A DNA stretch of 48,000 bases from Calothrix sp. MO_192.B10 (GCA_030065055.1 JASJDS010000083.1:1-48000), one strand, 5' to 3'; shown: positions 22,734-45,051, counted from the first letter of the stretch. A program made the numbers and translations. Notes: generated by a model from the letters alone, not told the origin.

Positions 22734-22781
22734 TTAAAGTGCCTACCAATTAATTTTGAAAGTTATTAGGGTGTTAATTCA

Positions 22782-25239: not shown

Positions 25240-25329
25240 ATTTTTCTATAATTACTGCGATTAATATCTAATTTCATGCTAATAGGCTTTTGAACTTACT
25301 TATCTATCTAATATTTGAGCAAAGGTTTA

Positions 25330-26565: not shown

Positions 26566-26658
26566 CTGTATTAGATGGAAAAGATATCATTAAAACTTGC
26601 ATTTTTATGTCAATTTAATGCAGCTTTATGTCTGTCAGAAAAAATAAGGCATAGAAAT

Positions 26659-29171: not shown

Positions 29172-29219
29172 AAAAGACTAAGTGTAAATTACTAAATAAT
29201 TATTATAGGAGGTATTAAA

Positions 29220-30224
29220 TTGTATTCTATAGGAGTTGTGATTATTGGCAGAAATGAGGGCGATCGCTTAAAAAGTTGTCTGCTATCTGTGATCAAAGAA
29301 GGAAATACCATTGTTTATGTAGATTCTGGATCTACAGATGGTAGTGTTGCATTGGCTTATTCTCTAGGTGTTGCCGTTGTGGAATTAGATTTATCCATCC
29401 CCTTTACTGCTGCTCGGGCAAGAAATGCAGGGTGGGAATATTTGCTACAACACAGACCTGATATTGAGTTTGTCCAGTTTGTTGATGGAGATTGTCGGGT
29501 TGTAGAGGGATGGTGGGAAAGTGCGGTGAATGAGCTAGTTAACCAACCTCAAGTTGTGGTAGTATGCGGTCGGCGTAGAGAAGAATTTCCCCGTCACTCC
29601 GTATATAATCTCCTCTGTGATGTTGAATGGAATACCCCTATAGGAGAGGCTAAATACTGTGGTGGCGACTCGATGATACGAGTAGCTGCATTAAAACAAG
29701 CTGGAGGATTTAATCCAACCTTAATTGCGGGAGAAGAACCGGAATTATGCGTGCGTTTGCGTCGGAATGGTGGTAAAATTTACCGCATTGATGCGGAAAT
29801 GACATTGCACGATGCTTGCATTAACCATTTTAGTCAATGGTGGAAGCGATCGCTCCGCAGTGGTTACGGTTATGCAGAGGGTGCTTGGTTACACGGTGGT
29901 AGCCCTGAACGGCATTGGGTAAAGGAATGTCGTCGGATCTGGATTTGGGGCTTCATTTTACCTTTATTGACTGTGATCGCTTTATTGCCAACTAAAGGAT
30001 TGAGCTTACTGTTACTAGCAATAGCTTATGGTTACTTGTTTTACCGGGTATATTCTATGACCAGTAAAAAAGGTTGCGATCGGCAAACGGCTATTTTTTA
30101 TGCTCTGTTTTGCATCATCGATAAATTCCCGATGGTACAAGGGCAAATGAAATTTTATTTTTTGCGATTATTGAAACGCCAAAGCAAAATTGTGGAGTAC
30201 AAAAGTGCCCTTTCTGGCAGTTAA
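29220..30224 (+). CDS. Family-2 glycosyltransferase
   Basis: TTG start 8 nt after AGGAGG. Motifs VVIIGRNEGDRL...VDSGSTDGS...FVDGDC, with C-terminal TM segments. Confidence 0.85.
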   Translation: MYSIGVVIIGRNEGDRLKSCLLSVIKEGNTIVYVDSGSTDGSVALAYSLGVAVVELDLSIPFTAARARNAGWEYLLQHRPDIEFVQFVDGDCRVVEGWWESAVNELVNQPQVVVVCGRRREEFPRHSVYNLLCDVEWNTPIGEAKYCGGDSMIRVAALKQAGGFNPTLIAGEEPELCVRLRRNGGKIYRIDAEMTLHDACINHFSQWWKRSLRSGYGYAEGAWLHGGSPERHWVKECRRIWIWGFILPLLTVIALLPTKGLSLLLLAIAYGYLFYRVYSMTSKKGCDRQTAIFYALFCIIDKFPMVQGQMKFYFLRLLKRQSKIVEYKSALSGS

Positions 30225-30259
30225 TTGAAATTTAAATTATTTAATTGGGAAAATGAGTT

Positions 30260-31312
30260 ATGGGAACCAAACTTAAATCAGCAGTAATCGGTACGGGAGC
30301 AATTTCTAAGGAACATCTCAGCTTTTTATCAACCTCAGAACGGGCAAATTTAGTCAGTGTTTGTGACCTTTCTCCAGCATCGGCTAAATATGCAGCCCGG
30401 AGGTTTGGGGCAAGCTCTACTTATACTGATTATCGGCAAATGCTATCTGAGGTGAAGCCAGATATTGTCCACATTCTCACTCCTCCTCATACCCACAAAA
30501 AAATTGCCACGGATTGTTTAGAAGCGGGGGTTCACGTATTTTGTGAAAAGCCCATTGCCCCAACCTATGATGAATTTCAAGAACTTTGGCAGTTAGCACA
30601 ATCCCAGAGGTGCTGGTTAGTTGAAAATCAGAACTACTGTTTTAATGAGAAAATCTTAGCTATTAGTAGATTAGTAGCAGCAGGTATGCTGGGCGAAGTT
30701 CAGGAAGTGGAAGTGAGAATTGCTCTACCTGTGAGGGATGGAGGGGCTTTTGCTGATGAAAATTTACCCAACCCAATTCATCAACTTCCCGCAGGGGTAG
30801 TGCATGACTTTATCACCCATCTATGTTCTCTGGTAGTACGTTTTATCCCTGATTTTGAGCGGGTTAGTGCCGCTTGGAGTAATCACGGTGGTGGGGAATT
30901 ATTTAAATATGATGACCTAGATGCGATCGCTATTGGTAAGTCGGCCCATGCTCGGATTCGCTTCAGCAGCCATACCCTACCCAAGGCATTTAGTGTCATA
31001 GTCCGGGGTTCAGAAGGCTATGCAGAAACGGATTTATTCCAGCCATATTTACGTTGTGTTATTCCCCGTGCGGGAGAGGTGCTATCTCCACTGATTAATC
31101 ATTTTATGAATGGATGGGACTTGATTGGATCAACATTTGTCAATTTCCGCAACAAGATTATGCAAAAAACTCCCTATGAAGGGTTGCACCGGCTGTTAGA
31201 TAGAACCTATGAAGCACTAATTGAAGGAAAGACCCCACCTATTAGTTTTGAAGATATGGAACGTACTAATCGTTTGGTGAATAAGTTACTTCTAGAAACT
31301 GGTAGATTTTAG
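30260..31312 (+). CDS. Gfo/Idh/MocA-family NAD(P)-dependent oxidoreductase
   Basis: LKSAVIGTGAISKEHL Rossmann start and the CEKP motif (VFCEKPIA). Confidence 0.85.
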   Translation: MGTKLKSAVIGTGAISKEHLSFLSTSERANLVSVCDLSPASAKYAARRFGASSTYTDYRQMLSEVKPDIVHILTPPHTHKKIATDCLEAGVHVFCEKPIAPTYDEFQELWQLAQSQRCWLVENQNYCFNEKILAISRLVAAGMLGEVQEVEVRIALPVRDGGAFADENLPNPIHQLPAGVVHDFITHLCSLVVRFIPDFERVSAAWSNHGGGELFKYDDLDAIAIGKSAHARIRFSSHTLPKAFSVIVRGSEGYAETDLFQPYLRCVIPRAGEVLSPLINHFMNGWDLIGSTFVNFRNKIMQKTPYEGLHRLLDRTYEALIEGKTPPISFEDMERTNRLVNKLLLETGRF

Positions 31313-31336
31313 ATTGGGGGATAGTTTTATTTTCTC

Positions 31337-31437
31337 GGCGTTGCTGAAGAAAGATATGTATATCTCACGCAGAGACGCAGAGGCGCAGAGAGTAAGAGTT
31401 TTAAGAGGTTCATTAGTTCATCATATTGTGCAATGCC
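31337..31437. mobile_element. MITE-like element of the GGCGTTGCTGA...GCAATGCC family, carrying a CGCAGAG repeat core
   Basis: The termini and the CACGCAGAGACGCAGAGGCGCAGAGAG core are shared with copies at 3377-3489 and 6286-6441. Confidence 0.65.
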
Positions 31438-31482
31438 CTAACTGCGAATTACAAACTACTATTTAATGAGGTTGATGATTAA

Positions 31483-32559
31483 ATGAAATTATTAATTACA
31501 GGTGCTTCTGGTTTTGTTGGACAGTATGTAGTTGTCCAAGCACTGCGAAAAGGGCATCAAGTAAAGGCGGTAGTGCGTCCATCTAGTGACCTGAAAAAAC
31601 TACCTTGGTCAAATCATCCAGCCGTGGAGCTAGTCCGTCTAGACTTGCGCCGTCAAGCAGGTATTGTGGATGCTCTCCAGGATGTAGACGCAGTTATTCA
31701 CTTAGCAGCTGCTAAAGACGGGGACTTTTACACCCGATTTGCAGGCACAGTAATTACCACAGAAAATTTACTCAACGCTATGGTTGAGGCAAATATGATG
31801 CGTTTGGTTAATATTAGTACCTTCTGCGTATACGACTATCTTCGCATCCCATCCCGGACCACAATTAAGGAAGATTCTATCACTGAATGTGACCCGTTAG
31901 AGCGAGAAGAGTACACCCAAACCAAATTACTTCAAGAAGAACTGATTCAAGAGTTTCAAGAAAATCACCAGCACTCACAAGTCACAACCATCCGCCCCGG
32001 ACTGATATACGGACGAGATAATATTTGGAGTACCCTGCTGGGGGGTAAACTAGGTGGTAATCTCTGGTTGCGAATTGGTGGTTATGCAACTATGCCCTTG
32101 ACTTATATCGAAAATTGTGCTGATGCCATTGTTTGTGCGGCGGAGTGTCCCCAAGCGATCGGTAAAATTATCAATATCGTCGATGATAAGTTGCCCACTC
32201 AAAGGGCATATGTGAAGAAATTGAAGCGATATGCCCTACCCATACCGAAAACCATCCCCATAAATTGGACGCTGATGCGTAGCATTGCTTGGATATTTTG
32301 GAAATTCAATAAAGTTTTCCTCAAAGGACAGGCGCGATTACCTGGTATATTTAACCCAGTGATATTAGATGCCAGATTCAAACATTTTCGCTTCAGTAAT
32401 CATCGCGCCAAACATCTGTTAAATTGGACACCCAAGTATTCCCTAGATGAAGCACTCCAACGTATAAGTCGTAATGGTGACTTATTACAAGTATCTTCTA
32501 CCTCCCTTGCAGATACCGATGAAACAACAGAGGAGAGCTTATGCGGATTGCCTACTTAA
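31483..32559 (+). CDS. NAD-dependent epimerase/dehydratase (extended SDR)
   Basis: MKLLITGASGFVGQY glycine motif and a YTQTK (YxxxK) catalytic motif. Confidence 0.85.
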   Translation: MKLLITGASGFVGQYVVVQALRKGHQVKAVVRPSSDLKKLPWSNHPAVELVRLDLRRQAGIVDALQDVDAVIHLAAAKDGDFYTRFAGTVITTENLLNAMVEANMMRLVNISTFCVYDYLRIPSRTTIKEDSITECDPLEREEYTQTKLLQEELIQEFQENHQHSQVTTIRPGLIYGRDNIWSTLLGGKLGGNLWLRIGGYATMPLTYIENCADAIVCAAECPQAIGKIINIVDDKLPTQRAYVKKLKRYALPIPKTIPINWTLMRSIAWIFWKFNKVFLKGQARLPGIFNPVILDARFKHFRFSNHRAKHLLNWTPKYSLDEALQRISRNGDLLQVSSTSLADTDETTEESLCGLPT

Positions 32560-33830
32560 CTGGTGAGTATCCCAGGGTGACAGATACCTTTATCCAACGA
32601 GAAGTAATTGGTTTGCGGGAAATGGGTGTGGATGTCCATACATTCTCCATTCGCCGCACTGATGACACACACATGGTGGGAGAAGAGCAAAAACAAGAAC
32701 GCGATCGCACTTTTTACATTCTCCCTCCTCACCCAGTGAAACTACTATTTGCCCATGTTAATTTATTACTTGCTTGTCCGAAAAAATACTTGCAAGCGAT
32801 CGCCCTAGCTTGGTCTACTAGTCAACCTGGATTTAAGGGTGGACTGTATCAAATATTCTACTTTTTGGAAGCTGGTATCCTCGCTCAACAAATCAAAGCG
32901 AGGAACATTGCCCACCTCCACAATCATATTGCGGAAGCCAGTGGCACTGTAGCAATGATTGCGGCTGAAATGGGAGGATTTACTTACAGTTTTACATTAC
33001 ACGGGGCGTACATCTTTTTTAGACCATATCAATGGCGGCTTGATGAGAAAATTAAGCGAGCATTATTTGTAACTTGCATTAGTCATTTCGCTCGCAGCCA
33101 GGGTATGATATTTGCTCCTCCTGAAAAATGGCATCGAATGCATATCGTTCATTGCGGTATCGATCCAACTTTATTTCAACCAGTTACCCATAAGGGGCTA
33201 GGAAAACGCTTACTATTTGTAGGCAGACTGGCTGCTGCTAAAGGATTACCCATATTGCTGTCAAGCTTGGTAACATTACGCAAAAAACACCCAGATATTT
33301 TATTAACAGTTGTTGGTGATGGTGCCGAGCGGGGACAGTTAGAAAAAATGACTGCCCAGTTAGGCTTGACTGAAAATGTGAATTATGTGGGTTCTAAATC
33401 CCAAGCAGAGGTTAGAGATTATCTCCAACAAACAGACATTTTCGTCATGTCGAGCTTTGCTGAGGGATTACCAGTAGTCTTAATGGAAGCAATGGCAGCA
33501 GGTGTACCTGTAGTTGCTCCCCAAATTGCTGGTATTAGCGAGCTAGTGGAAAATGGAGTCAACGGCTACCTCGTCCCCCCAGGAGACTCTGTTTCCCTAA
33601 CCCACAGTATCGAACTATTACTGAATAATCCTGAAATCAGAGTAGCATTTGGTACTCAAGGTCGAGACAAAGTAGAAACAGACTTCAATATACGTAATGA
33701 AGTTTCCTGGTTACACCAACTGATGAATAGTGCTTTGCAAGGTGATATAGAACCCATTCGTCCAAATTACAAACCAGAGCAAGTTGCTCTCAACTCAAAT
33801 CTCGTACCAGAACATCTGTTAAGTTCTTAA
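32541..33830 (+). CDS. GT-B family-4 glycosyltransferase (WcaL-like)
   Basis: MRIAYLTGEYPRVTDTFIQREV N-terminus and C-terminal FVMSSFAEGLPVVLMEAMAAGVPVVA. It overlaps the SDR gene by 19 nt. Confidence 0.85.
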   Translation: MRIAYLTGEYPRVTDTFIQREVIGLREMGVDVHTFSIRRTDDTHMVGEEQKQERDRTFYILPPHPVKLLFAHVNLLLACPKKYLQAIALAWSTSQPGFKGGLYQIFYFLEAGILAQQIKARNIAHLHNHIAEASGTVAMIAAEMGGFTYSFTLHGAYIFFRPYQWRLDEKIKRALFVTCISHFARSQGMIFAPPEKWHRMHIVHCGIDPTLFQPVTHKGLGKRLLFVGRLAAAKGLPILLSSLVTLRKKHPDILLTVVGDGAERGQLEKMTAQLGLTENVNYVGSKSQAEVRDYLQQTDIFVMSSFAEGLPVVLMEAMAAGVPVVAPQIAGISELVENGVNGYLVPPGDSVSLTHSIELLLNNPEIRVAFGTQGRDKVETDFNIRNEVSWLHQLMNSALQGDIEPIRPNYKPEQVALNSNLVPEHLLSS

Positions 33831-33837
33831 GTAATTT

Positions 33838-35184
33838 ATGAAATCTGTAAAACAATTGGCAATCCGTGGAGCCATCTGGACTGTGATTGGTTTTGGAGGA
33901 AATTATCTACTGAGATTTGGTAATAATTTAGTTCTTACTCGTCTATTGCAGCCAGAATTTTTTGGTTTAATGGCTTTTGTTAATACCCTACGTATGGGTT
34001 TAACACTATTCTCAGATATTGGTATTGGTCAAAACATTATTAATAGTAAACGAGGAGATGAACCGAGTTTTTTAAATACAGCTTGGACTTTAAAGATTAT
34101 TCGCGGTTTTGTTATTTGGTTTGTTTGTCTGCTGATTAGTTTTCCCATTGCATTTTTTTATAATGACCAACGCTTACTGTGGCTAATTCCGGTTGTAACT
34201 ATATATTCGGTGTTAGACGGATTTAGTTCTACTAGTATCCATACACTGAATCGGCGTATGGAGTTAGGTAAGCTTTCCCTGTATGAATTAGTCTTACAGT
34301 TCTGTTATTTTTCTACACTCATCTTTTTTGTTTGGCTATATCCCAGTCTTTGGACTTTAGCTATAGGAACTTTAATCCCAGGTGTATATAGATTAGTTAG
34401 TAGCTATTGGTTAATTCCCAAATATTCTAATTGGTTTGAGTGGGATAAAGATGCTGTGAAAGAAATTCTTTCCTTTGGCAAATGGATGTTTCTGGCATCA
34501 GGATTTATGTTTGCAGCCGAACAAGCTGACTACATGATTTTAGGGAAATTACTCTCCTTTAAAATGCTGGGAGTTTACATAATTGCTTATACTTTGGCAA
34601 GTATACCGCGAGAAACTATTAAAGTACTGAGTAATAAAGTAATTTTTCCAGCTATTGCCAAACAGTCAGATTTACCAAGACATATTTTACGGGAAAAGAT
34701 TCTGACTCAGCGACGAATATTATTAATTGGATTTGCAATTTTCTTAGCAGCACTAGTTACTACTGGCGATTTAGTTGTATCTTTCCTCTACGATCAAAGA
34801 TATCGTGATGCTGGCTGGATAATGCCAATTCTATGCTGTGGAATGTGGTTCTCTCTACTTTTTTATACTATTAGTCCTGCTTTATTAGCACTCGGTAAAC
34901 CTTTATATTCTGCTCAAAGTAATTTTGCCAGATTCGCCATTATTGCCATAGCCGTACCTCTGTTATTTGAAAAGTTTGGTGTAGTAGGAGCAGTAATTGC
35001 GATCGCATTGAGTGATTTACCATTATACCTGACAAATCTTTATGGTCTATGGCGAGAAAAACTATTTTGTTTTAGTCAAGATATGGCTGCTACAGGCTTC
35101 TTTGTGGCAGTATTGAGTTTATTTTTCGTAATTCGCAATAATTTGGGATTCGGATTCCCAATCCAGCAACTAATAAACGGTTAA
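33838..35184 (+). CDS. wzx: Oligosaccharide-unit flippase (Wzx, MOP superfamily)
   Basis: About 12 predicted TM helices, and the N-terminus and length are typical of polysaccharide-biosynthesis flippases. Confidence 0.78.
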   Translation: MKSVKQLAIRGAIWTVIGFGGNYLLRFGNNLVLTRLLQPEFFGLMAFVNTLRMGLTLFSDIGIGQNIINSKRGDEPSFLNTAWTLKIIRGFVIWFVCLLISFPIAFFYNDQRLLWLIPVVTIYSVLDGFSSTSIHTLNRRMELGKLSLYELVLQFCYFSTLIFFVWLYPSLWTLAIGTLIPGVYRLVSSYWLIPKYSNWFEWDKDAVKEILSFGKWMFLASGFMFAAEQADYMILGKLLSFKMLGVYIIAYTLASIPRETIKVLSNKVIFPAIAKQSDLPRHILREKILTQRRILLIGFAIFLAALVTTGDLVVSFLYDQRYRDAGWIMPILCCGMWFSLLFYTISPALLALGKPLYSAQSNFARFAIIAIAVPLLFEKFGVVGAVIAIALSDLPLYLTNLYGLWREKLFCFSQDMAATGFFVAVLSLFFVIRNNLGFGFPIQQLING

Positions 35185-36134: not shown

Positions 36135-37619
36135 ATGAGTACCATTGATTGGGTGGTTGTTGCAATTTATGCTATGATTGTGCTGGCGATCGGAATTGCA
36201 GCGAGTCGCAAGCAAAACAACACCGATGAATATTTCCGAGGATCGCGGCAACTACCTTGGTGGGCAGTAGGTTTATCAATTATTGCCACCTCTTTCTCCG
36301 CAGCTTCACTCCTTGGGGGACCTGGAGAAGGCTATAACCACGGTTTTCTATATCTACAGCTTCAGTTGGGTGACTTGATTGGTTATGGTTTAGTCATCTT
36401 ATTGTTTCTGCCATTTTTTGTGCGGCTTAACCTCACAACCGCCTATGAATATCTGGAGCAACGTTTCGATGCCAAAACCCGTTCCCTAGGCTCCCTGTGT
36501 TTTTTACTATTTGTCATTGCCCGGTTAGGGGGACTTTTATATGCAGCATCTTTGGTTGTCTCAACCGTTACCGGGCTTCCACTTTATCTAGCCATCTTGC
36601 TGGTAGGTATTGTATCAATTGCCTATACCGTTGCCGGTGGAATTACGGCAGTGGTTTGGACTGACGTACTTCAGTTTGCCATGATTTTTGTTGGCTTGGC
36701 TGCTGGTATTTGGACTGTTGTGTCAGGGGTTTCTGGCGGGTTTGGAGAACTTTGGGGCGCAGCAGGTGCAGGGGGAAAACTAGTGATGTTTAACCCCTCC
36801 TGGGAACCAGCATCAATTCGTTCACTACCCACAGCATTATTCGCCTATGGAATGCTTGCCTTTGGTGTGGCAGGAACAAACCAGCAATCTGTACAGCGTT
36901 ATGTCTCCTGTGCGGATGTGAACTCAGCCCGTAAGGCAATTTTTTTGGGATGGTTTTCTGGTTTTATTGGTGTTGCCGCTACCCTGTTGTTGGGGGTTCT
37001 TTTGTTTGGTTTTTATTCCCTTAATGCTGGGCTACCGGATGATATCAAACCAGATGGTATTCTGTCATATTTTATTGTCAATCAGGTGCCCCCTGGTGCT
37101 TCAGGATTTTTAGTGGCAGCTATCTTTGCTGCTGCCATGTCATCGATTGATTCGGCGCTTCATTCCCTTGCCACCTGTATGACAGTTGACTTTTACCAAC
37201 GTTACTCCCCATCACCACGGAGTGAATCTCAGTCCCTGAAGGTTGCCCAAGGTTTGATTGTGGTTTGGGGAGTTCTGGGTATTCTCTCAGCATTTTATGT
37301 TGCTTCAACGGGAGAATCCTTACTACCATTTCTGATTAAATATACTGCCATGTTTTTGGGACCATTGCTGGGAATTTTTCTCATGGGAGTTCTCTTTCCC
37401 CGCATTAATGCCACGGGAGCATTTTACGGCACCATTACGGCAGTTATCATTTTGGTGGTGGGTTCAGAAATCGGCTGGTTGGGTTTTCCGGGGATTTGGC
37501 GTTCTGCAATTATTGCCCCGGTTGCGATTATATTAGGTTTGGTGATTTCTCTACTTGGTGGAAAACCTGGGGAACGCTCCCTGGGAGGGCTTACGCTTTG
37601 GAATCAAAAAGACTCTTAA
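36135..37619 (+). CDS. Sodium:solute symporter family (SSS/SLC5) transporter
   Basis: About 13 TM helices, with an N-terminal YFRGSRQLPWW and the WTDVLQ motif typical of the SSS family. Confidence 0.85.
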   Translation: MSTIDWVVVAIYAMIVLAIGIAASRKQNNTDEYFRGSRQLPWWAVGLSIIATSFSAASLLGGPGEGYNHGFLYLQLQLGDLIGYGLVILLFLPFFVRLNLTTAYEYLEQRFDAKTRSLGSLCFLLFVIARLGGLLYAASLVVSTVTGLPLYLAILLVGIVSIAYTVAGGITAVVWTDVLQFAMIFVGLAAGIWTVVSGVSGGFGELWGAAGAGGKLVMFNPSWEPASIRSLPTALFAYGMLAFGVAGTNQQSVQRYVSCADVNSARKAIFLGWFSGFIGVAATLLLGVLLFGFYSLNAGLPDDIKPDGILSYFIVNQVPPGASGFLVAAIFAAAMSSIDSALHSLATCMTVDFYQRYSPSPRSESQSLKVAQGLIVVWGVLGILSAFYVASTGESLLPFLIKYTAMFLGPLLGIFLMGVLFPRINATGAFYGTITAVIILVVGSEIGWLGFPGIWRSAIIAPVAIILGLVISLLGGKPGERSLGGLTLWNQKDS

Positions 37620-37621
37620 AT

Positions 37622-37695
37622 TAACCCTTTTGTGTCACTCTGGAAAAAGAAAAACAAATGTAGGTTGGGTGGAACGGAGTGAAACCCAACAATAC
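37622..37695. repeat. Dispersed repeat TAACCCTTTTGTGTCACTCTGG...GTAGGTTGGGTGGAACGGAGTGAAACCCAACAATACC
   Basis: An inverted copy lies at 38720-38794, and a related full hairpin at 45467-45531. Confidence 0.75.
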
Positions 37696-38183
37696 CAATT
37701 TCTTCGGGTTAAAAAACCGCAGAGGCGCAGAGAACACAGAGGATAGAGAGGTTTAGGAGATAGGTAATCTTAAACCGAGAAGAGAGTAGCATAACGCACG
37801 CCCGCCATATTACCGGATGGTGCGTTACGCTACGCGGCAGGACACCCTACGTGTTTTTCAAAAATTTTGATTCTCCCCATTCGTAAAGCCCTTCCGGGCA
37901 TCAAAGAAACGCGGAGCGTCTCCGGAGGAGAAACGATACCGGCACTACAATAATTTAATATTTTTCAGGATGTCATCTGACAAAAAGGAGCTTATTTTTC
38001 CCTAACCTCTAGCTCAACCTAACCCCAATCTTGTTGTTATCCTTGTTGTCACCCCTTGAGCAAAAAGACTCTTAAATGAATGGCACTAAGTTAAACTGAA
38101 AGTCTTTAGCTGCAAGGGTTATTCTTTCAGCAGTTTCTTGTACCCAACTTGTAACAATTTCCATATCGGTATAAGTCTATTTT

Positions 38184-38489
38184 TCAGTTTGGCGGTGTAT
38201 CACCACGGTTGGGGTTTTCTAAATACTCCAAAATCCGATTGATATTTTCTTGCTGTTGATTGATGGTTAGCTGCTGCTGTTGCATGATTAACTGATGTCG
38301 GGTAGATATTTCTGCTAAACGGTTAACAGTTCGCTCTAATCTAGTTGTAGATTGAGAAGTAGCCCGTACCTCTCGCCTAACACCATTTTGAACTGTGCGA
38401 AGTAAATCTAGTTCATCAAGTATTTGCTCTAACTGTTCATCGATATTATCCAACCGTGTTGAAATGTCCTCTGGTTGTGAGTTAGTCAT
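38184..38489 (-). CDS. Small coiled-coil hypothetical protein (101 aa)
   Basis: The ORF shows a heptad-like pattern and a Q-rich stretch. No family recognised. Confidence 0.5.
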   Translation of the reverse strand: MTNSQPEDISTRLDNIDEQLEQILDELDLLRTVQNGVRREVRATSQSTTRLERTVNRLAEISTRHQLIMQQQQLTINQQQENINRILEYLENPNRGDTPPN

Positions 38490-38608
38490 TGGTAAAATAT
38501 CCTTAACAAGTTTTTTTGTTTTAGCTATCCCTATTAAAAGATAGTGTTTTTGTTTCTTATCCCTCTCCTAAGAAACCGTATTTGCTTCGGGCTTTTATGA
38601 ATTTAGGC

Positions 38609-38794
38609 GTAGGTTGGGGAGCCACTCTTGTGCGCGGGTGAATCCTGCGGATACGCTACGCGAGCCCCGCGTTGAGAGAAGTGGCGTTTGAGGGACGAAA
38701 CCCAACAACCAAAAACTTCGGCATTGTTGGGTTTCACTTCGTTCTACCCAACCTACATTTCTTTTTCTCTTCCTAGAGTGACAGAAGAGGGTTA
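38609..38794. repeat. Composite repeat: GTAGGTTGGGG...AAACCCAAC hairpin family plus an inverted copy of the 37622-37695 element
   Basis: The sequence is shared with 37622-37695 in reverse complement. It explains the spurious ORF 38595-38888. Confidence 0.75.
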
Positions 38795-38953
38795 TTTTAA
38801 AAACAGCTTGGTAATGAGGGGAAAGGAGGCTCCGTCTCCTGTTATCAGAGCTGGTGCAAGTTGTTAGGGTAGAATCGTTCTTCAACAATATCTAAAAATG
38901 TAAATTCATACTTCCATTCAGCAACGCCGGTTTTAGAGTTTTATAGCCGTTAA

Positions 38954-41362
38954 TTAACCCTCCTCGTTTAACCTATCCCGCGCCGCCCAAATCGCCTCGC
39001 GTACCTCACCTGCACAATCGCTACCCTTCACCTCGTGCCAAATGGTATCAAATTGATTTTCCCCTAAAACCCCCAGCATCCGTGCTAAAGCATTTCTATA
39101 AAAGTCAATAGAATCTTGAAAATGCTCAATAGCAATAGCTAAAGCACGAATATAAATTCGTAAAGCCTGAGAATAATTTGATTGCGCTTCTAACGCCCTT
39201 CCCCATTTAGCTAACGTTAATGAAGTCAGATACCAATCTTGGAATTGTTCATAAATACTAAAGGCTTGTTGATAATAGCTAATTGCTACCTCAAATTGCC
39301 GTTGTTCTTCGGCTACCATACCCAGTTGGTGATAGTCATTTGCAGCGTTGTACAAATCTCCTGCATCTTCAAATATTTTTAAAGCCTTAAGGTAATACTG
39401 CTGCGCTTGCTCAAATTTCCGTTCTAGATAAGCTACATTACCCAATTGATGATAATCACTTGCAGCCTTGTACAAATCCTCTGCATCTTCTAATATTTTC
39501 AAACTTTTGAGGTAATATTGCTGTGCTTGCTCAAATTGCTGTTTTTCTTCTGCTACCATACCCAGGTGGTGATATTCACCTGCAGCTTTATATAAATCCC
39601 CTGCATCTTCATATATTTTCAAAGCCTTGAGGTAATACTGCTGGGCTTGCTCAAATTCCCGTTGTACATAAGCTACATTACCCAATTGATGATAGTCACT
39701 TGCAGCCTTGTACAAATCCCCTGCATCTTCAAATATTTGCAAAGATTTAAGGTAATACTGCCGCGCTTTCTCATACTTCCCTTGTGCTTCAGCTATCCTA
39801 CCCAAATGGTGATATTCACCTGCAGCCTTGTACAAATCCCCTGCATCTTCAAATATTTGCAAAGATTTAAGGTAATACTGCCGCGCTTGCTCAAACTCCC
39901 CTTGTGCTTCGGCTACCCTACCCAAGTGGTGATAGTCACTTGCAGCTTTGTACAAATCTCTTCTATCTTCTTTGATTTTCAAAGCCTTGAAGTAATATTG
40001 ACGTGCTTGCTCAAACTCCCGTTGTTCCTCGGCTACCATACCCAGTTGGTGATAATTACTTGCAGCGTTGTACAAATCCCCTGCATCTTCAAATATTTTT
40101 AAAGCCTTGAGGTAATATTGCTGGGCTTGCTCAAATTTCCGTTCTAGATAAGCTATATTACCTAGTTGGTGATAGTTACTTGCAGCCTTGTACAAATCCC
40201 CTGCATCTTCAAATATTTTCAAAGCTTTGAGGTAATATTGCTGGGCTTGCTCAAATTGCCGTTGTTCTTCGGCTACCCTACCCAGTTGGTGATAGATGCT
40301 AGCACAACTGTAGGTATCCTCTAACTCTGATTCTATTTCTAAACATTGTTGATACAATTCTTTAGCCTGTGCAAATTGTCTCAATTTTAAGTAAGCATTG
40401 CCCAAGTAAAACAAAGCCGTAGCTTCATCATCCCTATTTTCTATATTTTGGGCAATATTTAACGACTGTTGATAATAAGTAATTGCTGTTTCAAATTGCC
40501 TTTGCTGAAAATATGTTTCTCCTAAATAATTGAAAATTTCACCTTGATACTTCCTATCTTTAAGACTCTCAGCGGCTTTTGTTGCTTCTTCTAAGTATAG
40601 CCTAGCTTTATCAGGCATCCTTTGATTAAGATAAGCAACCCCTAACTGCTGCAAAACATTACTATATCTACGAATATCTCCCTCTGGTACTTGATACCCA
40701 GTGGGTTTATATTCCATCAATAAACGCTCTAATAAATCAATGCGTTCTTGCTTTTCTTGTGGTTCTAATCTGTTGATAATATTTTCAGTATTGCGAGTCT
40801 GATTGAGAGCATTTTCTCTAGTTATCTCTGGTGTTTTAAACCGAAATACTCCCGAACGCCAAGCCCAAAAATCAGGAGCAAATTTAGCTAGGCGAGTAAT
40901 GGCATAGTCTGGTAAAATAAATAAAATAGGATGGGTAACTCTTGTTTTATAAGCATCGCGGACAAAATTCAAGTCTTGTAAAACTGGGGGATAGCTATCA
41001 AAAACCCCAATAGACTTTGCTAATCCCCGCACAATCAAAACTAATTTTTTATTTGCCTCTAACTGAATATTCGGTAATTCCTGAACAATCTCATCCCGCA
41101 GAAACCGTAAATTTTCATCAGGGAAATTGAGAATAGCAAACTGAATATTTTTACATTCCGGGTGATTTTGTAAACCCTCAATTAATAGGTCTACATCTGG
41201 GGGAAAATTAACCTCTACAAAACCAAGGGTGAACTTTTCAGCAAAATCTATAAAAGTCAGTAATTCAGCAAAAACTTCTTGATTGAGGGCGATAAACTGC
41301 CCAATTTCTGCACTACGCTCTCCCTGCAAGTGCGGATTGAAGTGCTTTTTGGAAGAACTCAT
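38954..41362 (-). CDS. TPR-array protein (802 aa) with an unassigned ~230-aa N-terminal domain
   Basis: From about aa 232 to 720 there are 12 or more TPR-like repeats, the central ones with an exact 40-aa period (FEQAQQYYLKALKIFEDAGDLYKAASNYHQLG...). The N-terminal domain has no motif I recognise. The ATG overlaps the upstream gene by 50 nt. Confidence 0.85.
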   Translation of the reverse strand: MSSSKKHFNPHLQGERSAEIGQFIALNQEVFAELLTFIDFAEKFTLGFVEVNFPPDVDLLIEGLQNHPECKNIQFAILNFPDENLRFLRDEIVQELPNIQLEANKKLVLIVRGLAKSIGVFDSYPPVLQDLNFVRDAYKTRVTHPILFILPDYAITRLAKFAPDFWAWRSGVFRFKTPEITRENALNQTRNTENIINRLEPQEKQERIDLLERLLMEYKPTGYQVPEGDIRRYSNVLQQLGVAYLNQRMPDKARLYLEEATKAAESLKDRKYQGEIFNYLGETYFQQRQFETAITYYQQSLNIAQNIENRDDEATALFYLGNAYLKLRQFAQAKELYQQCLEIESELEDTYSCASIYHQLGRVAEEQRQFEQAQQYYLKALKIFEDAGDLYKAASNYHQLGNIAYLERKFEQAQQYYLKALKIFEDAGDLYNAASNYHQLGMVAEEQREFEQARQYYFKALKIKEDRRDLYKAASDYHHLGRVAEAQGEFEQARQYYLKSLQIFEDAGDLYKAAGEYHHLGRIAEAQGKYEKARQYYLKSLQIFEDAGDLYKAASDYHQLGNVAYVQREFEQAQQYYLKALKIYEDAGDLYKAAGEYHHLGMVAEEKQQFEQAQQYYLKSLKILEDAEDLYKAASDYHQLGNVAYLERKFEQAQQYYLKALKIFEDAGDLYNAANDYHQLGMVAEEQRQFEVAISYYQQAFSIYEQFQDWYLTSLTLAKWGRALEAQSNYSQALRIYIRALAIAIEHFQDSIDFYRNALARMLGVLGENQFDTIWHEVKGSDCAGEVREAIWAARDRLNEEG

Positions 41363-42677
41363 TTTTTTTCACCACTGGATTGGGGTAATTCCATCGTTTA
41401 TTGCCGTTATATTCTAAAACTGAAGTATTAAACAGCATCAACTGACCAATATCATCTTTACTTATATCCTTACTAATACACACCTGGGCTAAATATTGAT
41501 AATCTTCTTCAGAAATAAACCTTTCAAAACTAAATTGCTGTTGTTTGACAGCATATGTAACATCTTCATCTGTAATTTGAGGATGCTTGCGAGTACTAGC
41601 AGTTTGACAAGCAGTTCGCATCATTTGCATTAACTGACGCACATGACCCCCACTGGCTTTTGCTAACTCTAATAATTCTTGCCGAGATGCAAACACAGCA
41701 TCAATATCTACACGCTTTTCTATTAAACTCGCTACAGCATCTAGTCCCGTTTGATTATATTTTAAATCACAACTATCCCGTTCAAATTCATAAATATCTA
41801 CCATTGGTACAATATGGGGATTACCATCAAACAAAGTGAGAGGATTTCTGGGGGAACACAGAATAGAAATTGGCACCGTATAAATAATAGTACAGTGCAA
41901 TTCTTGCAACTGAGCCGCGTAATCAAAAAACAAATGATTAGCAACTGCGGGTGAAACCCGATCCAGATTATCAAATATAATCAGTAAACCTTTATATTCC
42001 GGAGATTTATTTTTATATTTTTCTCTCAATTTAATGTAGGCATTATCCAGCAATAAATTAATATCTGCTTTTAAACGGGAGAGGTCTTTTTCTAAAGTTT
42101 GACGAATAGTATTTTTTTGCTTGTGAGAACCTTTAATTTGTGCCAACAACTTGACCATTAATTTAGCAATAAATGGTGCTTCTTGCTTTAGGGTTGCTTC
42201 CCCTTCAATGCTCACAGACTTCTCTACACTTTCTTCAGTCTCTTGAGTAACATCTTTAAACCAGTCTTCAAAATTACGTAAAAGCTGCTGATCAAACTTT
42301 AAACCTAATTTTCTCAGTTCAAATTCTACTTGTTTAATCACAATTAAATATAAATCTGTATAGCTGGCATCATTAATATCAGTTTCCTCATTAACTTCTA
42401 AATAAATTACATGATAATTTTCTTGCCATCGCTTTTGAATCTTTTTTAATTCCGTGCTTTTGCCACAACCACGATGACCAGTAAATAAAATAGTACTAAA
42501 ATCCGCAGGTTCTTGAAAATCTAAAATCGTACTCACATTATCAACCGCTGAAGTTTTCCGTACTGCTGATAAATCAACATAATATTTTTCAATTTCTATC
42601 CCTTCTAACGGTCCCAGGGTACATACTTGAAAAGCAGACTTGAGAGTATTAGCATGTTGATAATTAGATATACTCAT
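41313..42677 (-). CDS. P-loop NTPase (AAA+/ORC-Cdc6/STAND-like), 454 aa
   Basis: Walker A GHRGCGKST (aa 67-75), a Walker-B-like LLIIFDNLDR (aa 231-240), and a C-terminal helical region containing GGHVRQLMQMMR. Confidence 0.8.
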   Translation of the reverse strand: MSISNYQHANTLKSAFQVCTLGPLEGIEIEKYYVDLSAVRKTSAVDNVSTILDFQEPADFSTILFTGHRGCGKSTELKKIQKRWQENYHVIYLEVNEETDINDASYTDLYLIVIKQVEFELRKLGLKFDQQLLRNFEDWFKDVTQETEESVEKSVSIEGEATLKQEAPFIAKLMVKLLAQIKGSHKQKNTIRQTLEKDLSRLKADINLLLDNAYIKLREKYKNKSPEYKGLLIIFDNLDRVSPAVANHLFFDYAAQLQELHCTIIYTVPISILCSPRNPLTLFDGNPHIVPMVDIYEFERDSCDLKYNQTGLDAVASLIEKRVDIDAVFASRQELLELAKASGGHVRQLMQMMRTACQTASTRKHPQITDEDVTYAVKQQQFSFERFISEEDYQYLAQVCISKDISKDDIGQLMLFNTSVLEYNGNKRWNYPNPVVKKNEFFQKALQSALAGRA

Positions 42678-42937: not shown

Positions 42938-43399
42938 ATACCAATTCAAATAATGTTTGCGACACATACATTCTTCGGGAGGGCACGGCATCCACCAAAT
43001 TTTAGTGTATGAAGTTATATTGCTGATGCCGTAAATCTTCGGGAGGGCACGGCATCCACCAAATTTTGGTGTATAAAGTTATATTGCTGATGCCGTAAAT
43101 CTTCGGGAGGGCACGGCATCCACCAAATTTTGGTGTATAAAGTTATATTGCTGATGCCGTAAATCTTCGGGAGGGCACGGCATCCACCAGATTTTGGTGT
43201 ATAAAGTTATATTGCTGATGCCGCAAATCTTCGGGAGGGCACGGCATCCACCAAATTTTGGTGTATAAAGTTATATTGCTGATGCCGCAAATCTTCGGGA
43301 GGGCACGGCATCCACCAGATTTTGGTGTATAAAGTTATATTGCTGATGCCGTGCCCCTACGAATCAATCATGTGTCGCATTGTTTTTGCAAATTGGTAT
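42938..43399. mobile_element. TIR-bounded MITE-like element containing six tandem 64-bp hairpin units (42973-43356)
   Basis: The outer ends are ATACCAATT...AATTGGTAT, with about 55 bp of imperfect inverted flanks. Unit starts (CTTCGGGAGGGCACGGCATC) fall at 42973, 43037, 43101, 43165, 43229 and 43293. Confidence 0.85.
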
Positions 43400-43461: not shown

Positions 43462-45051
43462 CTAGGAAGATTGTTCCTTGTCAGAGGGAAAATTTGGCAG
43501 TTCAACAGATGCTAAGGATTTCCTTCCTTTAGGTGGACGTTGGGGATATATCACCGGTGAAGGAGAAGCCTGTTCTTCAGTATATTCATCCCAGGAATTA
43601 TGGGATTTAGCACTTTCTAGCGCCTCCAAAGGTGACACTTGGGGTACATCTGACCAATAGTCTTCTGCTGGTGTTTCTGCTATAGTTTCAACAATGGGCG
43701 CGATCGCACCATTATCTACGGTTTCCACAATGGGTACAATGGGTTTGTCCCCTGACTGACTATCTACCGCTGGTTCCACAACATCAGTTTCCTCCTCAGT
43801 TGCGGTTGGGAAAGGTGAATTATGATCCCCGTTGTAATTTGGCAGATTACTTGACTCAGGTTGAGCGATCGCTTCTAATAAAATAGATTGGTCTTGGTTT
43901 GCCAATAATGCTTGGATGGCACGATCTAATTTTTCATCCCATGGATGAGCTACAACTTCATCATCCTTTGTGGCAGGAGAATCAAAAGCTTCTGTAGATG
44001 ATTCCTCTGCTGATGGGGTAGTGCTGCTTGCAGGTGATGCAGGTTCAAATTCCCAATTGAGTGGTTGTGTAGCCTCAGCCTCTGCTTCTAACTCGGTTTC
44101 TATATCACTAGGTGATGACAAACATAATTCTTCCCAGGTATGATTCAAATCATCCGTACTAGATTCTGAATCTGCAGACCAAGGTTGAATGGGGTTGGTA
44201 TGGGAAAATAGTGAACTAACAGCTGGAGAACATCTGGGATTGCTATCAATGTTATGGTAATTGTTACCAGTGTCATCGAGGAAATCCCCCGTTGGCACGG
44301 GCGCATCCAAACATTTTTCCAAAGCGGCTTTAAATTGTAGTGTTTGTCGCTGCTGCCGCATTAATCTAGTACGTAATTCCCGGCAAGCATTTTCCGATTG
44401 CAATAAGCGATGGGATTGCTCGTCATAGTTGGTTTGAATTTCCGCACACTCCCTTTCCAATTGGGCAAGGCGTTGTTGACTTAGTTCTAAGTGTGCCTTG
44501 TAGCTTTCTACTAAACTTTCTTGGCGTTGATTGCCTTGTACCGCAGTGTCTAACTCCGCAAACAGAGTTTTAATCTGCTCTTGCGCTGCACTCAGTTCTT
44601 GGGTTTGTTGGTTGAGCATTGAGTCTTTGACACTGGAGCGTTTCTTCTGTAATTGCAAAGCCTCTTCTGTATCAGCCAAAACCCGCTTTAGTTCCTCCAC
44701 CTGATTATATAAATCATCATTATCAGCACGTAATTCTTGATTCAATGTCAGGAGTTTTTCAAACTCAGCATTAATTAGTGCTTGTTGTTCGCTATCGGGT
44801 TCAGCAACCCAGTCTGATTCAGATGTAGTTGTAGTTGTAGTTTTACTTATATTTTTATCTGTATCTATATCTATAATTAATGGTTCATCTTCCATTGCTT
44901 GGGCTGCTGGTGGCAATTGAGGAATTGCCCTATCTTGATGAGGTACAACAGAATAGAAAGGACACATCGCCTGTTCTGACTGTGGCGAATTATGATTATT
45001 CAAGGACTCCTTCGCAGTCTTGTTATTTGGGTTTTCAGCTTCATTCATCAC
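43462..45051 (-). CDS. Acidic coiled-coil hypothetical protein (529 aa)
   Basis: The ORF has a central coiled-coil of about 170 aa (LINAEFEKLL...LQFKAALEKCL), flanked by low-complexity D/E/S/T/P-rich regions. No enzymatic motif. Confidence 0.6.
   Translation of the reverse strand: MMNEAENPNNKTAKESLNNHNSPQSEQAMCPFYSVVPHQDRAIPQLPPAAQAMEDEPLIIDIDTDKNISKTTTTTTSESDWVAEPDSEQQALINAEFEKLLTLNQELRADNDDLYNQVEELKRVLADTEEALQLQKKRSSVKDSMLNQQTQELSAAQEQIKTLFAELDTAVQGNQRQESLVESYKAHLELSQQRLAQLERECAEIQTNYDEQSHRLLQSENACRELRTRLMRQQRQTLQFKAALEKCLDAPVPTGDFLDDTGNNYHNIDSNPRCSPAVSSLFSHTNPIQPWSADSESSTDDLNHTWEELCLSSPSDIETELEAEAEATQPLNWEFEPASPASSTTPSAEESSTEAFDSPATKDDEVVAHPWDEKLDRAIQALLANQDQSILLEAIAQPESSNLPNYNGDHNSPFPTATEEETDVVEPAVDSQSGDKPIVPIVETVDNGAIAPIVETIAETPAEDYWSDVPQVSPLEALESAKSHNSWDEYTEEQASPSPVIYPQRPPKGRKSLASVELPNFPSDKEQSS

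What the first reader, a model, noticed from the sequence alone, without database searches (positions are those of the whole stretch)
38954..42677. Overlapping P-loop NTPase + 802-aa TPR-array gene pair: candidate split STAND-like sensor / conflict module
Two minus-strand genes overlap by 50 nt (NTPase stop at 41313, TPR-protein ATG at 41362 inside AAAAAAAATGAGT), which implies co-transcription and probably coupled translation.

Gene 1 (454 aa) has Walker A GHRGCGKST, then a charged helical insert of about 155 aa. After that come a Walker-B-like strand LLIIFDNLDR and a helical C-terminus (ELAKASGGHVRQLMQMMR) resembling an AAA+/ORC-Cdc6/STAND lid.

Gene 2 has an N-terminal domain of about 230 aa with an alternating strand/helix pattern (FVEVNF, LVLIVRGL, PILFILPDY). 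That domain has no Walker A and no motif I can place. It is followed by a long TPR array and a helical C-terminus of about 100 aa.

NTPase plus TPR sensor is the established architecture of STAND/NLR-like proteins, including antiviral Avs-type proteins. Here it is divided between two polypeptides, and no recognisable effector (nuclease, protease, TIR, Sir2) is visible. The unassigned N-terminal domain of gene 2 is the only effector or adaptor candidate and could be a degenerate NTPase-like fold. The pair sits between MITE pile-ups, which is an accessory-like context.
Basis: partly seen in the sequence, partly recalled or inferred. Interest (0 to 1): 0.72.

Follow-up and report, generated by a model that had tools for sequence, protein, structure and literature searches.

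The report
Split ATPase plus TPR sensor pair
Two overlapping cyanobacterial genes encode an active ATPase and a partner made of a dead copy of the same kind of ATPase fold fused to a long, fast-evolving repeat array; the pair looks like an immune-receptor-type switch split over two proteins, but its function is untested.

Summary

**Gene 1** is a soluble KAP-family P-loop NTPase. Its confident model is closest to archaeal Orc1/Cdc6: an AAA+ core with a helical insert of about 130 aa, a lid with an invariant arginine, and a winged-helix-like end.

**Gene 2** starts with a domain that has no Pfam match. It folds as an AAA+ core but has no Walker A and no Walker B acid, so it is a pseudo-ATPase. 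Thirteen 40-aa TPR units follow.

**Pairing.** The genes were adjacent in 40 of 40 loci with downstream DNA, down to 48% identity. One is a Parabeggiatoa MAG. In 37 loci gene 2 starts 41–59 nt inside gene 1.

**Evolution.** Rates rise from gene 1 to the N-domain to the TPR region. One Dolichospermum strain carries a recombinant TPR half (dS 0.40 against 0.017).

**Variants.** Rare relatives add a CHAT domain, apparently inactive, or a NACHT domain.

**Against a defence role.** Loci are not in defence islands or viral contigs, and this version has no effector.

**Verdict.** This is an uncharacterised split NLR/STAND-like switch. A conflict role is plausible but unproven.

The parts
41313..42677 (-). 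Gene 1: 454-aa soluble KAP-family / Orc1-Cdc6-like AAA+ NTPase
   Evidence: ORF. Pfam KAP_NTPase 31 bits against a cutoff of 20. AF2 pLDDT 86, pTM 0.88. Best Foldseek hits are archaeal Orc1/Cdc6 over the full length.
42453..42479 (-). Walker A, GHRGCGKST (aa 67-75, K73)
   Evidence: G67, H68, G70, G72 and K73 are invariant in 30 homologs.
41994..42395 (-). Helical insert of about 130 aa inside the NTPase core (aa 95-228), charged, with no transmembrane segment
   Evidence: All-helical in the AF2 model. The maximum 19-aa hydropathy within the insert is 0.78.
41958..41990 (-). Walker B strand, KGLLIIFDNLDR (aa 230-240), KAP-type hhhhDxLD[RK]
   Evidence: D236 and D239 are invariant. Strand 230-236 in the model.
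41592..41753 (-). AAA+ lid (aa 309-362) with the GGHxR sensor-2-like arginine R347
   Evidence: G344 and R347 are invariant. Weak Cdc6_lid and Orc1/Cdc6 TIGR02928 matches at aa 337-381.
41316..41570 (-). C-terminal winged-helix-like domain (aa 370-454)
   Evidence: Three helices plus short strands in the AF2 model. Foldseek alignments to Orc1/Cdc6 span the full query length, about 480 columns, which would include their winged-helix domain.
41313..41362 (-). 50-nt overlap: gene 2's ATG lies inside the 3' end of gene 1, in the +1 frame
   Evidence: Sequence. An overlap of 41-59 nt in the +1 frame is conserved in 37 related loci.
38954..41362 (-). Gene 2: 802-aa protein with a pseudo-AAA+ N-domain, a TPR array and a short helical tail
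   Evidence: ORF. TPR_12 x10, E 5e-78.
40703..41362 (-). N-terminal pseudo-AAA+ domain (aa 1 to about 220) with no Pfam family
   Evidence: AF2 pLDDT 82, pTM 0.76. Foldseek hits ORC2, Orc4, RFC, NSF, Sir3 and Rif2 at E 4e-5 to 1e-3. No Walker A in this domain in any of 80 diverse members. The family has 1525 representative clusters.
39095..40654 (-). TPR array, 13 units of 40 aa (aa 237-756)
   Evidence: Register shown. Pfam TPR families.
39290..40295 (-). Core of near-identical TPR units (120-nt unit x 8.4 copies, 81% identity)
   Evidence: TRF. Variation among units is concentrated at predicted concave-face positions, with dN/dS 1.41 there against 0.25 elsewhere.
38957..39094 (-). C-terminal helical tail (aa 757-802) with the motif LGENQF...W...AIW
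   Evidence: A similar tail is present in distant members P0245 and P0382. It is poorly conserved overall.

Best explanation
This is a two-gene, co-transcribed and probably translationally coupled module. It encodes an ATP-driven molecular switch of the NLR/STAND type, split over two polypeptides.

**Gene 1** supplies the active nucleotide-binding module. It is a soluble KAP-family P-loop NTPase with an Orc1/Cdc6-like layout: an AAA+ core with a helical insert of about 130 aa, a lid with a sensor-2 arginine, and a winged-helix-like domain.

**Gene 2** supplies the sensor. A catalytically dead AAA+-like domain is inferred to dock on gene 1's ATPase, as inactive subunits do in ORC- or RFC-type hetero-oligomers. 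It tethers a 13-unit TPR array whose concave face binds a ligand, most likely a protein or peptide. Ligand binding is inferred to control ATP-dependent assembly of the complex.

**Output.** This version has no enzymatic effector. The output would be scaffolding or sequestration, DNA binding through the winged helix, or recruitment of an unlinked effector.

**Likely role.** The most likely biological role is sensing of non-self (phage or foreign cells) in filamentous cyanobacteria.

**Shown:** the domain identities, the dead active site, the conserved pairing and overlap, and the faster and recombining evolution of the TPR region.

**Inferred:** the physical interaction, ligand control, and the conflict role.
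For: **Domains**
- Gene 1 matches KAP_NTPase above threshold. Walker A, Walker B and R347 are invariant. Its fold is closest to Orc1/Cdc6.
- The gene 2 N-domain has an AAA+ fold. It lacks Walker A in 80 of 80 diverse members, and its Walker-B-equivalent strand KLVLIVRGL has no acidic residue.

**Pairing**
- The genes are adjacent in 40 of 40 loci, down to 48% identity and across phyla.
- The overlap is conserved in 37 loci.
- Pairing is also kept in variants whose partner carries CHAT or NACHT.
- One read-through fusion of gene 1's C-terminus to the N-domain exists, P0163.

**Sensor-like evolution**
- Conservation falls from gene 1 (96%) to the N-domain (91%) to the TPR region plus C-terminus (83%) among close pairs.
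- TPR number varies, giving gene 2 lengths of 404-1096 aa.
- Variation among repeats sits on predicted ligand-facing positions.
- One Dolichospermum strain has a mosaic allele: the N-domain has dS 0.017 and the TPR half has dS about 0.40, next to a gene 1 that is 100% identical.

**Accessory behaviour**
- Nostoc PCC 7524 keeps only an orphan N-domain relic.
- Two loci came from one Nostoc MAG (L039 and L040), and two gene 2 homologs are named from single Nostoc strains. These may be paralogs or strain mixtures.
- A copy occurs in a gammaproteobacterial Parabeggiatoa MAG.
Against: - No effector is present in this or most versions: 77 of 80 members are N-domain plus TPR only.
- The one CHAT lineage has its catalytic Cys replaced by Gly, SAGETG.
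- Loci are not in defence islands. Neighbours are ordinary signalling, transport and metabolic genes.
- No copies of the pair were found on viral contigs; only one weak N-domain-like match turned up.
- There is no significant PADLOC system match.
- Gene 1 is unusually conserved for a defence gene (70-88% across orders).
- Seven of eight Dolichospermum samples share one identical gene 2 allele.
- The profile-profile comparison of the N-domain with gene 1 is not significant.
- No complex model or experiment supports the proposed docking.
Confidence: 0.45

Rival explanations
1. A non-conflict regulatory or assembly machine. The ATPase and its TPR adaptor act as a chaperone, scaffold or signalling complex for an endogenous cyanobacterial process, and the TPR array binds cellular clients.
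For: - Gene 1 and the N-domain are under strong purifying selection across orders.
- Loci are chromosomal with partly conserved synteny. A GAF-PAS cyclase lies divergently upstream in Nostoc and Scytonema, and DUF3352 lies nearby in Dolichospermum and a Synechococcales MAG.
- There is no effector, no defence-island context and no viral copies.
- A single gene 2 allele is shared by 7 Dolichospermum samples.
Against: - The pair has been lost or decayed in Nostoc PCC 7524.
- It was detected in only 42 species' genomes of the reference set, although the search was pattern-limited.
- It has been transferred across phyla to Parabeggiatoa.
- The TPR half evolves fast and recombines.
- Relatives are fused to CHAT and NACHT domains, which are typical of conflict systems.
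Confidence: 0.3
2. An Orc1/Cdc6-like DNA-binding ATPase: an initiator or transcription regulator in the manner of MalT or AfsR. Its winged helix binds DNA, and the TPR partner modulates it.
For: - The best structural matches are Orc1/Cdc6 over the full length, which would include the winged-helix domain.
- There are weak Cdc6_lid and TIGR02928 matches.
- MalT-like TPR and AfsR TPR profiles hit gene 2.
Against: - All Orc/Cdc6 sequence models score far below threshold (24 bits against 181).
- No origin-like or mobile-element context is present, and flanks differ between genera.
- No recognisable HTH or DNA-binding Pfam domain was found.
- TM-scores are only about 0.4.
Confidence: 0.12
3. Gene 2 is a filament-forming cytoskeletal TPR protein orthologous to Anabaena All4981, and gene 1 corresponds to All4982 or All4983.
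For: All4981 is a TPR protein of about 650 aa that is co-transcribed with two upstream overlapping genes. An accidental 240-bp (two-unit) deletion occurred in its TPR region (PMC7002697).
Against: - The overlaps in Anabaena are 4-bp ATGA, not about 50 nt.
- Peptides encoded by the published internal primers for all4981, all4982 and all4983 (SPELAA, SDGGGK, VAAFIG) are not visible in this window's two proteins. None of the four primers matches the window or the 42 loci at 3 or fewer mismatches, and the looser matches are at chance level.
- The closely related Nostoc PCC 7524 has only an orphan relic of this family.
Confidence: 0.04
4. The two ORFs are expressed as one fused STAND-like protein, by ribosomal or transcriptional slippage on the A8 run at the junction.
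For: The A8 run lies immediately before gene 2's ATG, with gene 2 in the +1 frame. One database protein, P0163, reads through from gene 1 into the N-domain.
Against: - The A8 run is unique to this window. 37 related loci have GTGAAGCAAAATG at the same place, and distant ones have a 4-nt overlap or gaps of 9-207 nt.
- P0163 joins the two at gene 1's stop codon, not at the A-run. It starts mid-gene, so it is more likely a damaged copy.
Confidence: 0.03

Closest known systems
STAND / NLR-like NTPases with TPR sensors (for example MalT, AfsR, Avs-type and fungal TPR NLRs)
   Same: - An NTPase module with a core, a lid and a winged helix is combined with a C-terminal TPR array.
- The array is internally repetitive, varies in copy number and evolves fastest.
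- Relatives are fused to CHAT or NACHT domains.
   Different: - The NTPase and the sensor are on separate polypeptides.
- The NTPase is KAP/Orc1-Cdc6-like rather than NACHT, NB-ARC or SWACOS by sequence.
- The link between them is a dead AAA+-like domain.
- There is no N-terminal effector.
KAP family P-loop NTPases (Pfam PF07693; includes PifA. The link to Tmn-type defence proteins is from my own knowledge; the held Tmn paper calls Tmn YobI-family)
   Same: - Pfam gathering score is met.
- It has Walker A and the hhhhDxLD[RK] Walker B.
- A large insert lies inside the NTPase core.
   Different: - The insert is soluble and charged, with no transmembrane helices.
- No match to a Tmn model was listed in the PADLOC scan.
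- It has an obligate pseudo-AAA+/TPR partner.
Orc1/Cdc6 and other hetero-oligomeric AAA+ assemblies with inactive subunits (ORC, RFC; Sir3 and Rif2 as dead AAA+ folds)
   Same: - Both proteins have Aeropyrum ORC2 (1w5t) as their best structural match.
- An active ATPase is paired with a degenerate one.
- Gene 1 has a lid and a winged-helix arrangement.
   Different: - Sequence models score far below threshold.
- There is no replication-origin context.
- The partner carries a TPR array.
- TM-scores are only about 0.4.
iSTAND component of MoxR-vWA ternary conflict systems (Kaur et al. 2020, PMC7159879)
   Same: A catalytically inactive AAA+/STAND-like domain is used as a component of a multi-protein NTPase system that is enriched in multicellular bacteria, including cyanobacteria.
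   Different: There is no MoxR or vWA partner here. The active partner is a KAP-like NTPase. No Pfam or sequence link to iSTAND was detected.
TPR-CHAT proteases (for example Csx29 of type III-E CRISPR; named from my own knowledge)
   Same: The Parabeggiatoa-type variant of gene 2 is N-domain + TPR + CHAT.
   Different: The CHAT domain in that variant lacks the catalytic cysteine (SAGETG). The window's protein has no CHAT domain at all.

Membership tests
KAP family P-loop NTPase (PF07693) | Profile match at or above Pfam's gathering score | tested here: met
   31 bits against a cutoff of 20, E 2e-7, aa 46-250. PF07693 is precomputed for most homologs. Coverage of the profile is partial (positions 6-172 of 293).
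KAP family P-loop NTPase (PF07693) | Walker A plus a Walker B followed by a DxLDR-type motif | tested here: met
   GHRGCGKST and IIFDNLDR. G67, G70, G72, K73, D236 and D239 are invariant in 30 sequences. That DDLDR is the KAP signature rests on my own knowledge of Aravind et al. 2004.
KAP family P-loop NTPase (PF07693) | Insert within the P-loop domain carrying transmembrane helices | tested here: not met
   An insert is present (aa 95-228, all helical). It has no hydrophobic segment: maximum 19-aa Kyte-Doolittle 0.78 in the insert and 1.18 in the whole protein. This is therefore a soluble variant.
STAND NTPases (NACHT, NB-ARC, AAA_16, nSTAND) | Profile match at or above the curated score | tested here: not met
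   NACHT 17.9 against 26.7, AAA_16 20.3 against 32.6, nSTAND_NTPase5 16.9 against 34, NPHP3_N 17.7 against 24.8.
STAND NTPases (NACHT, NB-ARC, AAA_16, nSTAND) | NTPase core, helical lid and winged helix in one module | tested here: inconclusive
   The model has this layout, but so do Orc1/Cdc6, which are the best hits. No STAND structure is in the top 50.
STAND NTPases (NACHT, NB-ARC, AAA_16, nSTAND) | Repeat sensor (TPR, WD40 or LRR) C-terminal in the same polypeptide, with an effector at a terminus | tested here: not met
   The TPR array is on the second protein, and no effector domain is found in either protein.
Orc1/Cdc6 AAA+ initiators | Family profile match (TIGR02928, PRK00411, Cdc6_lid) | tested here: not met
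   TIGR02928 24 bits against 181, PRK00411 14 against 354, Cdc6_lid 19.6 against 27. The resemblance is by fold only, E 1e-6 and TM about 0.4.
AAA+ ATPase (gene 2 N-domain) | Walker A GxxxxGK[ST] and a Walker B acidic residue | tested here: not met
   No Walker A occurs in the N-domain of the window protein or of 80 diverse members. The beta-1 region reads GFVEVNFPPD and the beta-3 region reads KLVLIVRGL. The fold matches AAA+, so it is a pseudo-ATPase.
Known anti-phage systems (PADLOC-DB 2.0) | Significant match of either protein to a system component | tested here: not met
   The best hits are mad8 at 1.4e-6 (P-loop region only) and a generic 'TPR' model. No Tmn or Avs models were listed. 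Pif was not checked by name.
All4981 filament-forming TPR protein family (PMC7002697) | Orthology of gene 2 to All4981 and the same operon geometry | tested here: not met
   Anabaena has 4-bp ATGA overlaps against about 50 nt here. Peptides translated from the published primers are not visible in the window's two proteins, and none of the four primers matches the window or the 42 loci at 3 or fewer mismatches. A direct alignment was not possible because the sequence was not retrievable.
TPR repeat proteins | Multiple TPR profile matches | tested here: met
   TPR_12 at 5e-78 with 10 stretches, and TPR_1, TPR_2 and TPR_8 with 12 stretches each.

The most novel reading that the evidence does not exclude
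The pair is an effector-less, split NLR-type receptor. A dead AAA+ domain serves as the adaptor between a conserved ATPase 'engine' and an exchangeable TPR 'cassette'. Strains swap TPR cassettes by recombination. The system would mediate self/non-self (kin or allorecognition) or phage sensing in multicellular cyanobacteria, and it has spread to filamentous sulfur bacteria.
Probability: 0.18. Interest if true: 0.8.

Novelty: new variant of a known kind. Interest (0 to 1): 0.55.

Why it matters
If the model is right, NLR/STAND-type switches can be built from two polypeptides joined through a pseudo-ATPase domain. That arrangement lets a slowly evolving ATPase be combined with rapidly changing sensor arrays.

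The gene 2 N-domain defines a large family with no Pfam model: 1525 representative clusters at 50% identity. Naming it would annotate many 'hypothetical TPR proteins' in cyanobacteria.

The family is concentrated in filamentous, multicellular bacteria. It therefore bears on the proposed link between multicellularity and NLR-like conflict systems.

If the pair instead turns out to be a housekeeping adaptor-ATPase, it would still be an uncharacterised, strongly conserved cyanobacterial machine.

Tried and rejected
1. **All4981 orthology.** I pursued it through the paper and its supplements. I rejected it on operon geometry and on the primer evidence: the primer-encoded peptides are not seen in the window's proteins, and no primer matches at 3 or fewer mismatches. 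The All4983 primer matched one position in several Nostoc loci at 5 of 21 mismatches, which is about the number expected by chance.
2. **Programmed frameshift or slippage at the A8 run.** Rejected, because the run is not conserved.
3. **Homology between the gene 2 N-domain and gene 1's ATPase domain.** The hhalign comparison was not significant (probability 1%), although the only aligned stretch pairs the two Walker-B strands.
4. **Sequence-profile searches of solved structures.** Nothing significant for either protein.
6. **Viral contig scans.** No copy of the pair was found.
7. **Defence-island test.** A census of 104 neighbouring ORFs showed no enrichment.
8. **Hypervariability between strains.** Only two gene 2 alleles were seen among eight Dolichospermum samples, so the variation is episodic recombination rather than constant hypervariation.
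9. **CHAT as the missing effector.** This is weakened by loss of the catalytic Cys.
10. **Rfam scan of the locus and flanks.** No hits.
11. **Literature searches for a description of this pair.** None found.

Full report
**Observation**

The two minus-strand ORFs exist exactly as reported: 41313..42677 (454 aa) and 38954..41362 (802 aa). The junction reads ...GGTGAAAAAAAATGAGT.... Gene 1's TAG is at 41313-41315 and gene 2's ATG is at 41362, giving a 50-nt overlap with gene 2 in the +1 frame. Gene 2's reading frame opens only two codons before that ATG, so there is no alternative start. G+C content of the region (0.35-0.40) is not unusual for the window.

**Gene 1**

- Pfam places it in KAP_NTPase above the gathering score (31 bits against 20).
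- NACHT, AAA_16, nSTAND5, NPHP3_N and Cdc6_lid all score below their cutoffs.
- NCBIfam gives only sub-threshold hits, to the Sll1717 family and to Orc1/Cdc6.
- PADLOC gives nothing convincing; the best hit is mad8 at 1.4e-6 over the P-loop region.
- In an alignment of 30 homologs spanning 48-88% identity, several features are invariant or nearly so. These are Walker A (G67, H68, G70, G72, K73), the KAP-type Walker B (D236, D239 in IIFDNLDR), T267, R322, and the GGHxR arginine R347.
- The AlphaFold model is confident (pLDDT 86, pTM 0.88). It shows an AAA+ core interrupted by an all-helical insert (aa 95-228), a lid, and a three-helix plus hairpin C-terminus.
- Foldseek against the PDB returns archaeal Orc1/Cdc6 over the full length as the best hits (1w5t at E 1e-6, also 1fnn and 2qby). 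RuvB, RFC and TnsC follow. No STAND structure is in the top 50.
- There is no transmembrane segment.

Gene 1 is therefore a soluble member of the KAP-like NTPases with an Orc1/Cdc6-like layout, and it looks catalytically competent.

**Gene 2**

- Residues 1 to about 235 have no Pfam, NCBIfam or PADLOC match.
- They are strongly conserved, with motifs RFLRDEI, KKLVL, YPPVLQDLNFVRD, PHPILFxLPDYA and APDFWAWRSG.
- A profile of this domain finds 1525 representative clusters (E <= 1e-3) among 1.84 billion proteins. The domain is essentially always at the N-terminus of proteins of 400-1000 aa.
- Its model (pLDDT 82, pTM 0.76) is an alternating beta/alpha domain followed by helices.
- Foldseek hits are all AAA+ proteins: ORC2 1w5t at E 4e-5, Orc4, RFC, NSF and ClpC. 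The catalytically dead Sir3 and Rif2 AAA+-like domains are also among them.
- The position where Walker A would sit reads GFVEVNFPPD. The Walker B-equivalent strand reads KLVLIVRGL. None of 80 diverse family members has a Walker A in this domain.

The rest of gene 2 is 13 TPR units of 40 aa (aa 237-756). Eight are near-identical, seen as a 120-nt unit x 8.4 copies at 81% identity. A short helical tail follows.

**Pairing**

A scan of one genome per species found 42 loci encoding gene 1 relatives. They come from Nostocales, Coleofasciculaceae, Microcoleus, Acaryochloris, Synechococcales and one Candidatus Parabeggiatoa MAG.

- In all 40 loci with downstream DNA, a gene 2 N-domain homolog follows immediately. 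The window's other neighbours (the 529-aa and 101-aa ORFs) are not conserved.
- In 37 loci gene 2's ATG lies 41-59 nt inside gene 1 in the +1 frame. Distant loci have a 4-nt ATGA overlap or gaps of 9-207 nt.
- The A8 run before the ATG is unique to this window. Others read GTGAAGCAAAATG, so it is not a conserved slippery site.
- Two divergent N-domain proteins with extra domains also sit directly after clear gene 1 orthologs of 61% and 56% identity. They are P0355 (N-domain + TPR + CHAT) and P0262 (N-domain + TPR + AAA_16/NACHT + TPR).
- The Parabeggiatoa partner is also N-domain + TPR + CHAT. Its CHAT catalytic cysteine is replaced by glycine, SAGETG.
- Among 80 diverse members, 77 are N-domain + TPR. 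Five carry a second, Walker A-bearing NTPase after the N-domain.

**Evolutionary behaviour**

- Gene 1 is very conserved, at 70-88% identity across cyanobacterial orders.
- Among locus pairs whose gene 1 is at least 95% identical, the N-domain averages 91% and the TPR region plus C-terminus averages 83%.
- Gene 2 length ranges from 404 to 1096 aa.
- Within the window's own array, dN/dS among the eight core units is 1.41 at the six positions I assigned beforehand to the concave face of helix A. It is 0.25 elsewhere. The numbers are small, no significance test was done, and the position mapping rests on general knowledge of TPR structure.
- Two Dolichospermum genomes have gene 1 100% identical at the nucleotide level and an N-domain with dS 0.017. 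The TPR half has dS of about 0.40 and a 40-residue indel. This points to recombinational replacement of the sensor half rather than point-mutation divergence.
- Against constant hypervariation, seven of eight samples carrying that gene 1 share one identical 571-aa allele.
- Nostoc PCC 7524 keeps only an orphan 195-aa N-domain relic, with no NTPase or TPR gene next to it.
- Two loci came from one Nostoc MAG, and two gene 2 homologs are named from single Nostoc strains. These may be paralogs or strain mixtures.

**Context**

- Neighbourhoods are ordinary chromosomal genes. They differ between genera but are conserved within Dolichospermum.
- A census of 104 neighbouring ORFs from 16 loci plus the window shows no recurring defence genes. 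It found PAS/GAF cyclases, which lie divergently upstream in Nostoc and Scytonema. It also found Uma2, two methylases (one fused to a BsuBI-type endonuclease), phycobilisome genes and ABC transporters.
- The pair is absent from 2.9 million viral contigs, apart from one weak N-domain-like match.

**Known counterparts**

All4981 of Anabaena PCC 7120 was the obvious candidate. It is an essential, filament-forming TPR protein co-transcribed with two upstream genes (PMC7002697). However, its overlaps are 4-bp ATGA. Peptides encoded by the published internal primers are not seen in this window's proteins, and no primer matches the window or the 42 loci at 3 or fewer mismatches. I could not fetch the All4981 sequence itself, so this rejection is strong but not absolute.

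I found no description of this pair in the conflict-system literature I could search. That literature does describe inactive STAND components and TPR sensors in multicellular bacteria.

**Interpretation**

The best-supported reading is a split NLR/STAND-like switch. An active KAP/Orc1-Cdc6-like ATPase is coupled to a TPR sensor through a pseudo-AAA+ adaptor domain. The coupling is obligate by gene order and probably translational.

The physical docking, the ligand control and the output are all inferred. A conflict role (phage or non-self sensing) is favoured by several points:
- the fast-evolving and recombining TPR half;
- loss and transfer events;
- the CHAT and NACHT variants;
- the bias towards filamentous bacteria.

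It is weakened by other points:
- no effector is present;
- the CHAT domain appears dead;
- the genomic context is ordinary;
- gene 1 is very highly conserved.

I give the conflict-sensor model about 0.45 and a non-conflict adaptor-ATPase machine about 0.30. An Orc/Cdc6- or MalT-like DNA-binding role gets about 0.12. The All4981 and frameshift ideas each get below 0.05.

**Verdict**

The family assignment should be KAP/Orc1-Cdc6-like rather than STAND. The module is an uncharacterised variant of a known kind of system, of moderate interest.

Noticed in passing
window 42972-43352: A tandem array with a 64-nt unit x 6.0 copies at 97% identity. It lies in the 785-nt gap upstream of gene 1. The unit contains an internal inverted repeat (GGCATC...GATGCC). 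It is absent from all 53 fetched loci, occurs only here in the window, and has no Rfam match.
   Followed up: partly
window 37616-37707 and 38709-38800: A 92-nt inverted-repeat pair, 84% complementary, flanks the 101-aa coiled-coil ORF 38184..38489(-). These are MITE-like copies whose translation produces the 'NVGWVERSETQQ' pseudo-ORFs at 37555..37746(+) and 38595..38888(-).
   Followed up: partly
window 39647-40102 (+): This 151-aa plus-strand ORF is an antisense artefact of the TPR repeat array, not a gene.
   Followed up: yes
window 43462-45051 (-): A 529-aa acidic, low-complexity and coiled-coil-rich ORF lies upstream of the pair. It is not conserved next to the pair in any related locus.
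   Followed up: partly
L055/L056/L058 about 6095-6564 (Dolichospermum): A DUF4258/DUF2283 small gene pair, toxin-antitoxin-like, lies immediately downstream of gene 2 in the strains with the 571-aa allele. It is absent from the strain with the recombinant 604-aa allele. The indel therefore coincides with the allele difference.
   Followed up: no
L004, L007, L014, L046 upstream of gene 1; L016; L028: A GAF-PAS adenylate/guanylate cyclase lies divergently upstream of the pair in several Nostoc loci and in Scytonema PCC 7110. Tolypothrix has a PAS-GAF-GGDEF protein there, and Coleofasciculus has a PAS histidine kinase. This could be shared synteny or a functional link.
   Followed up: partly
L048 2982-4640 and L038 10965-13268: A DUF3352 protein lies near the pair both in Dolichospermum and in the most divergent Synechococcales locus, which has 48% gene 1 identity.
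   Followed up: no
P0163 (Scytonema sp. NUACC26): This 434-aa database protein reads through from the C-terminal half of a gene 1 homolog into the gene 2 N-domain. It is either a natural fusion or a damaged copy.
   Followed up: partly
window 16176-35184 (+): A long run of about 15 same-strand genes lies upstream in the window, ending with a sulfotransferase-like ORF and a sodium:solute symporter-like ORF. I did not examine it.
   Followed up: no
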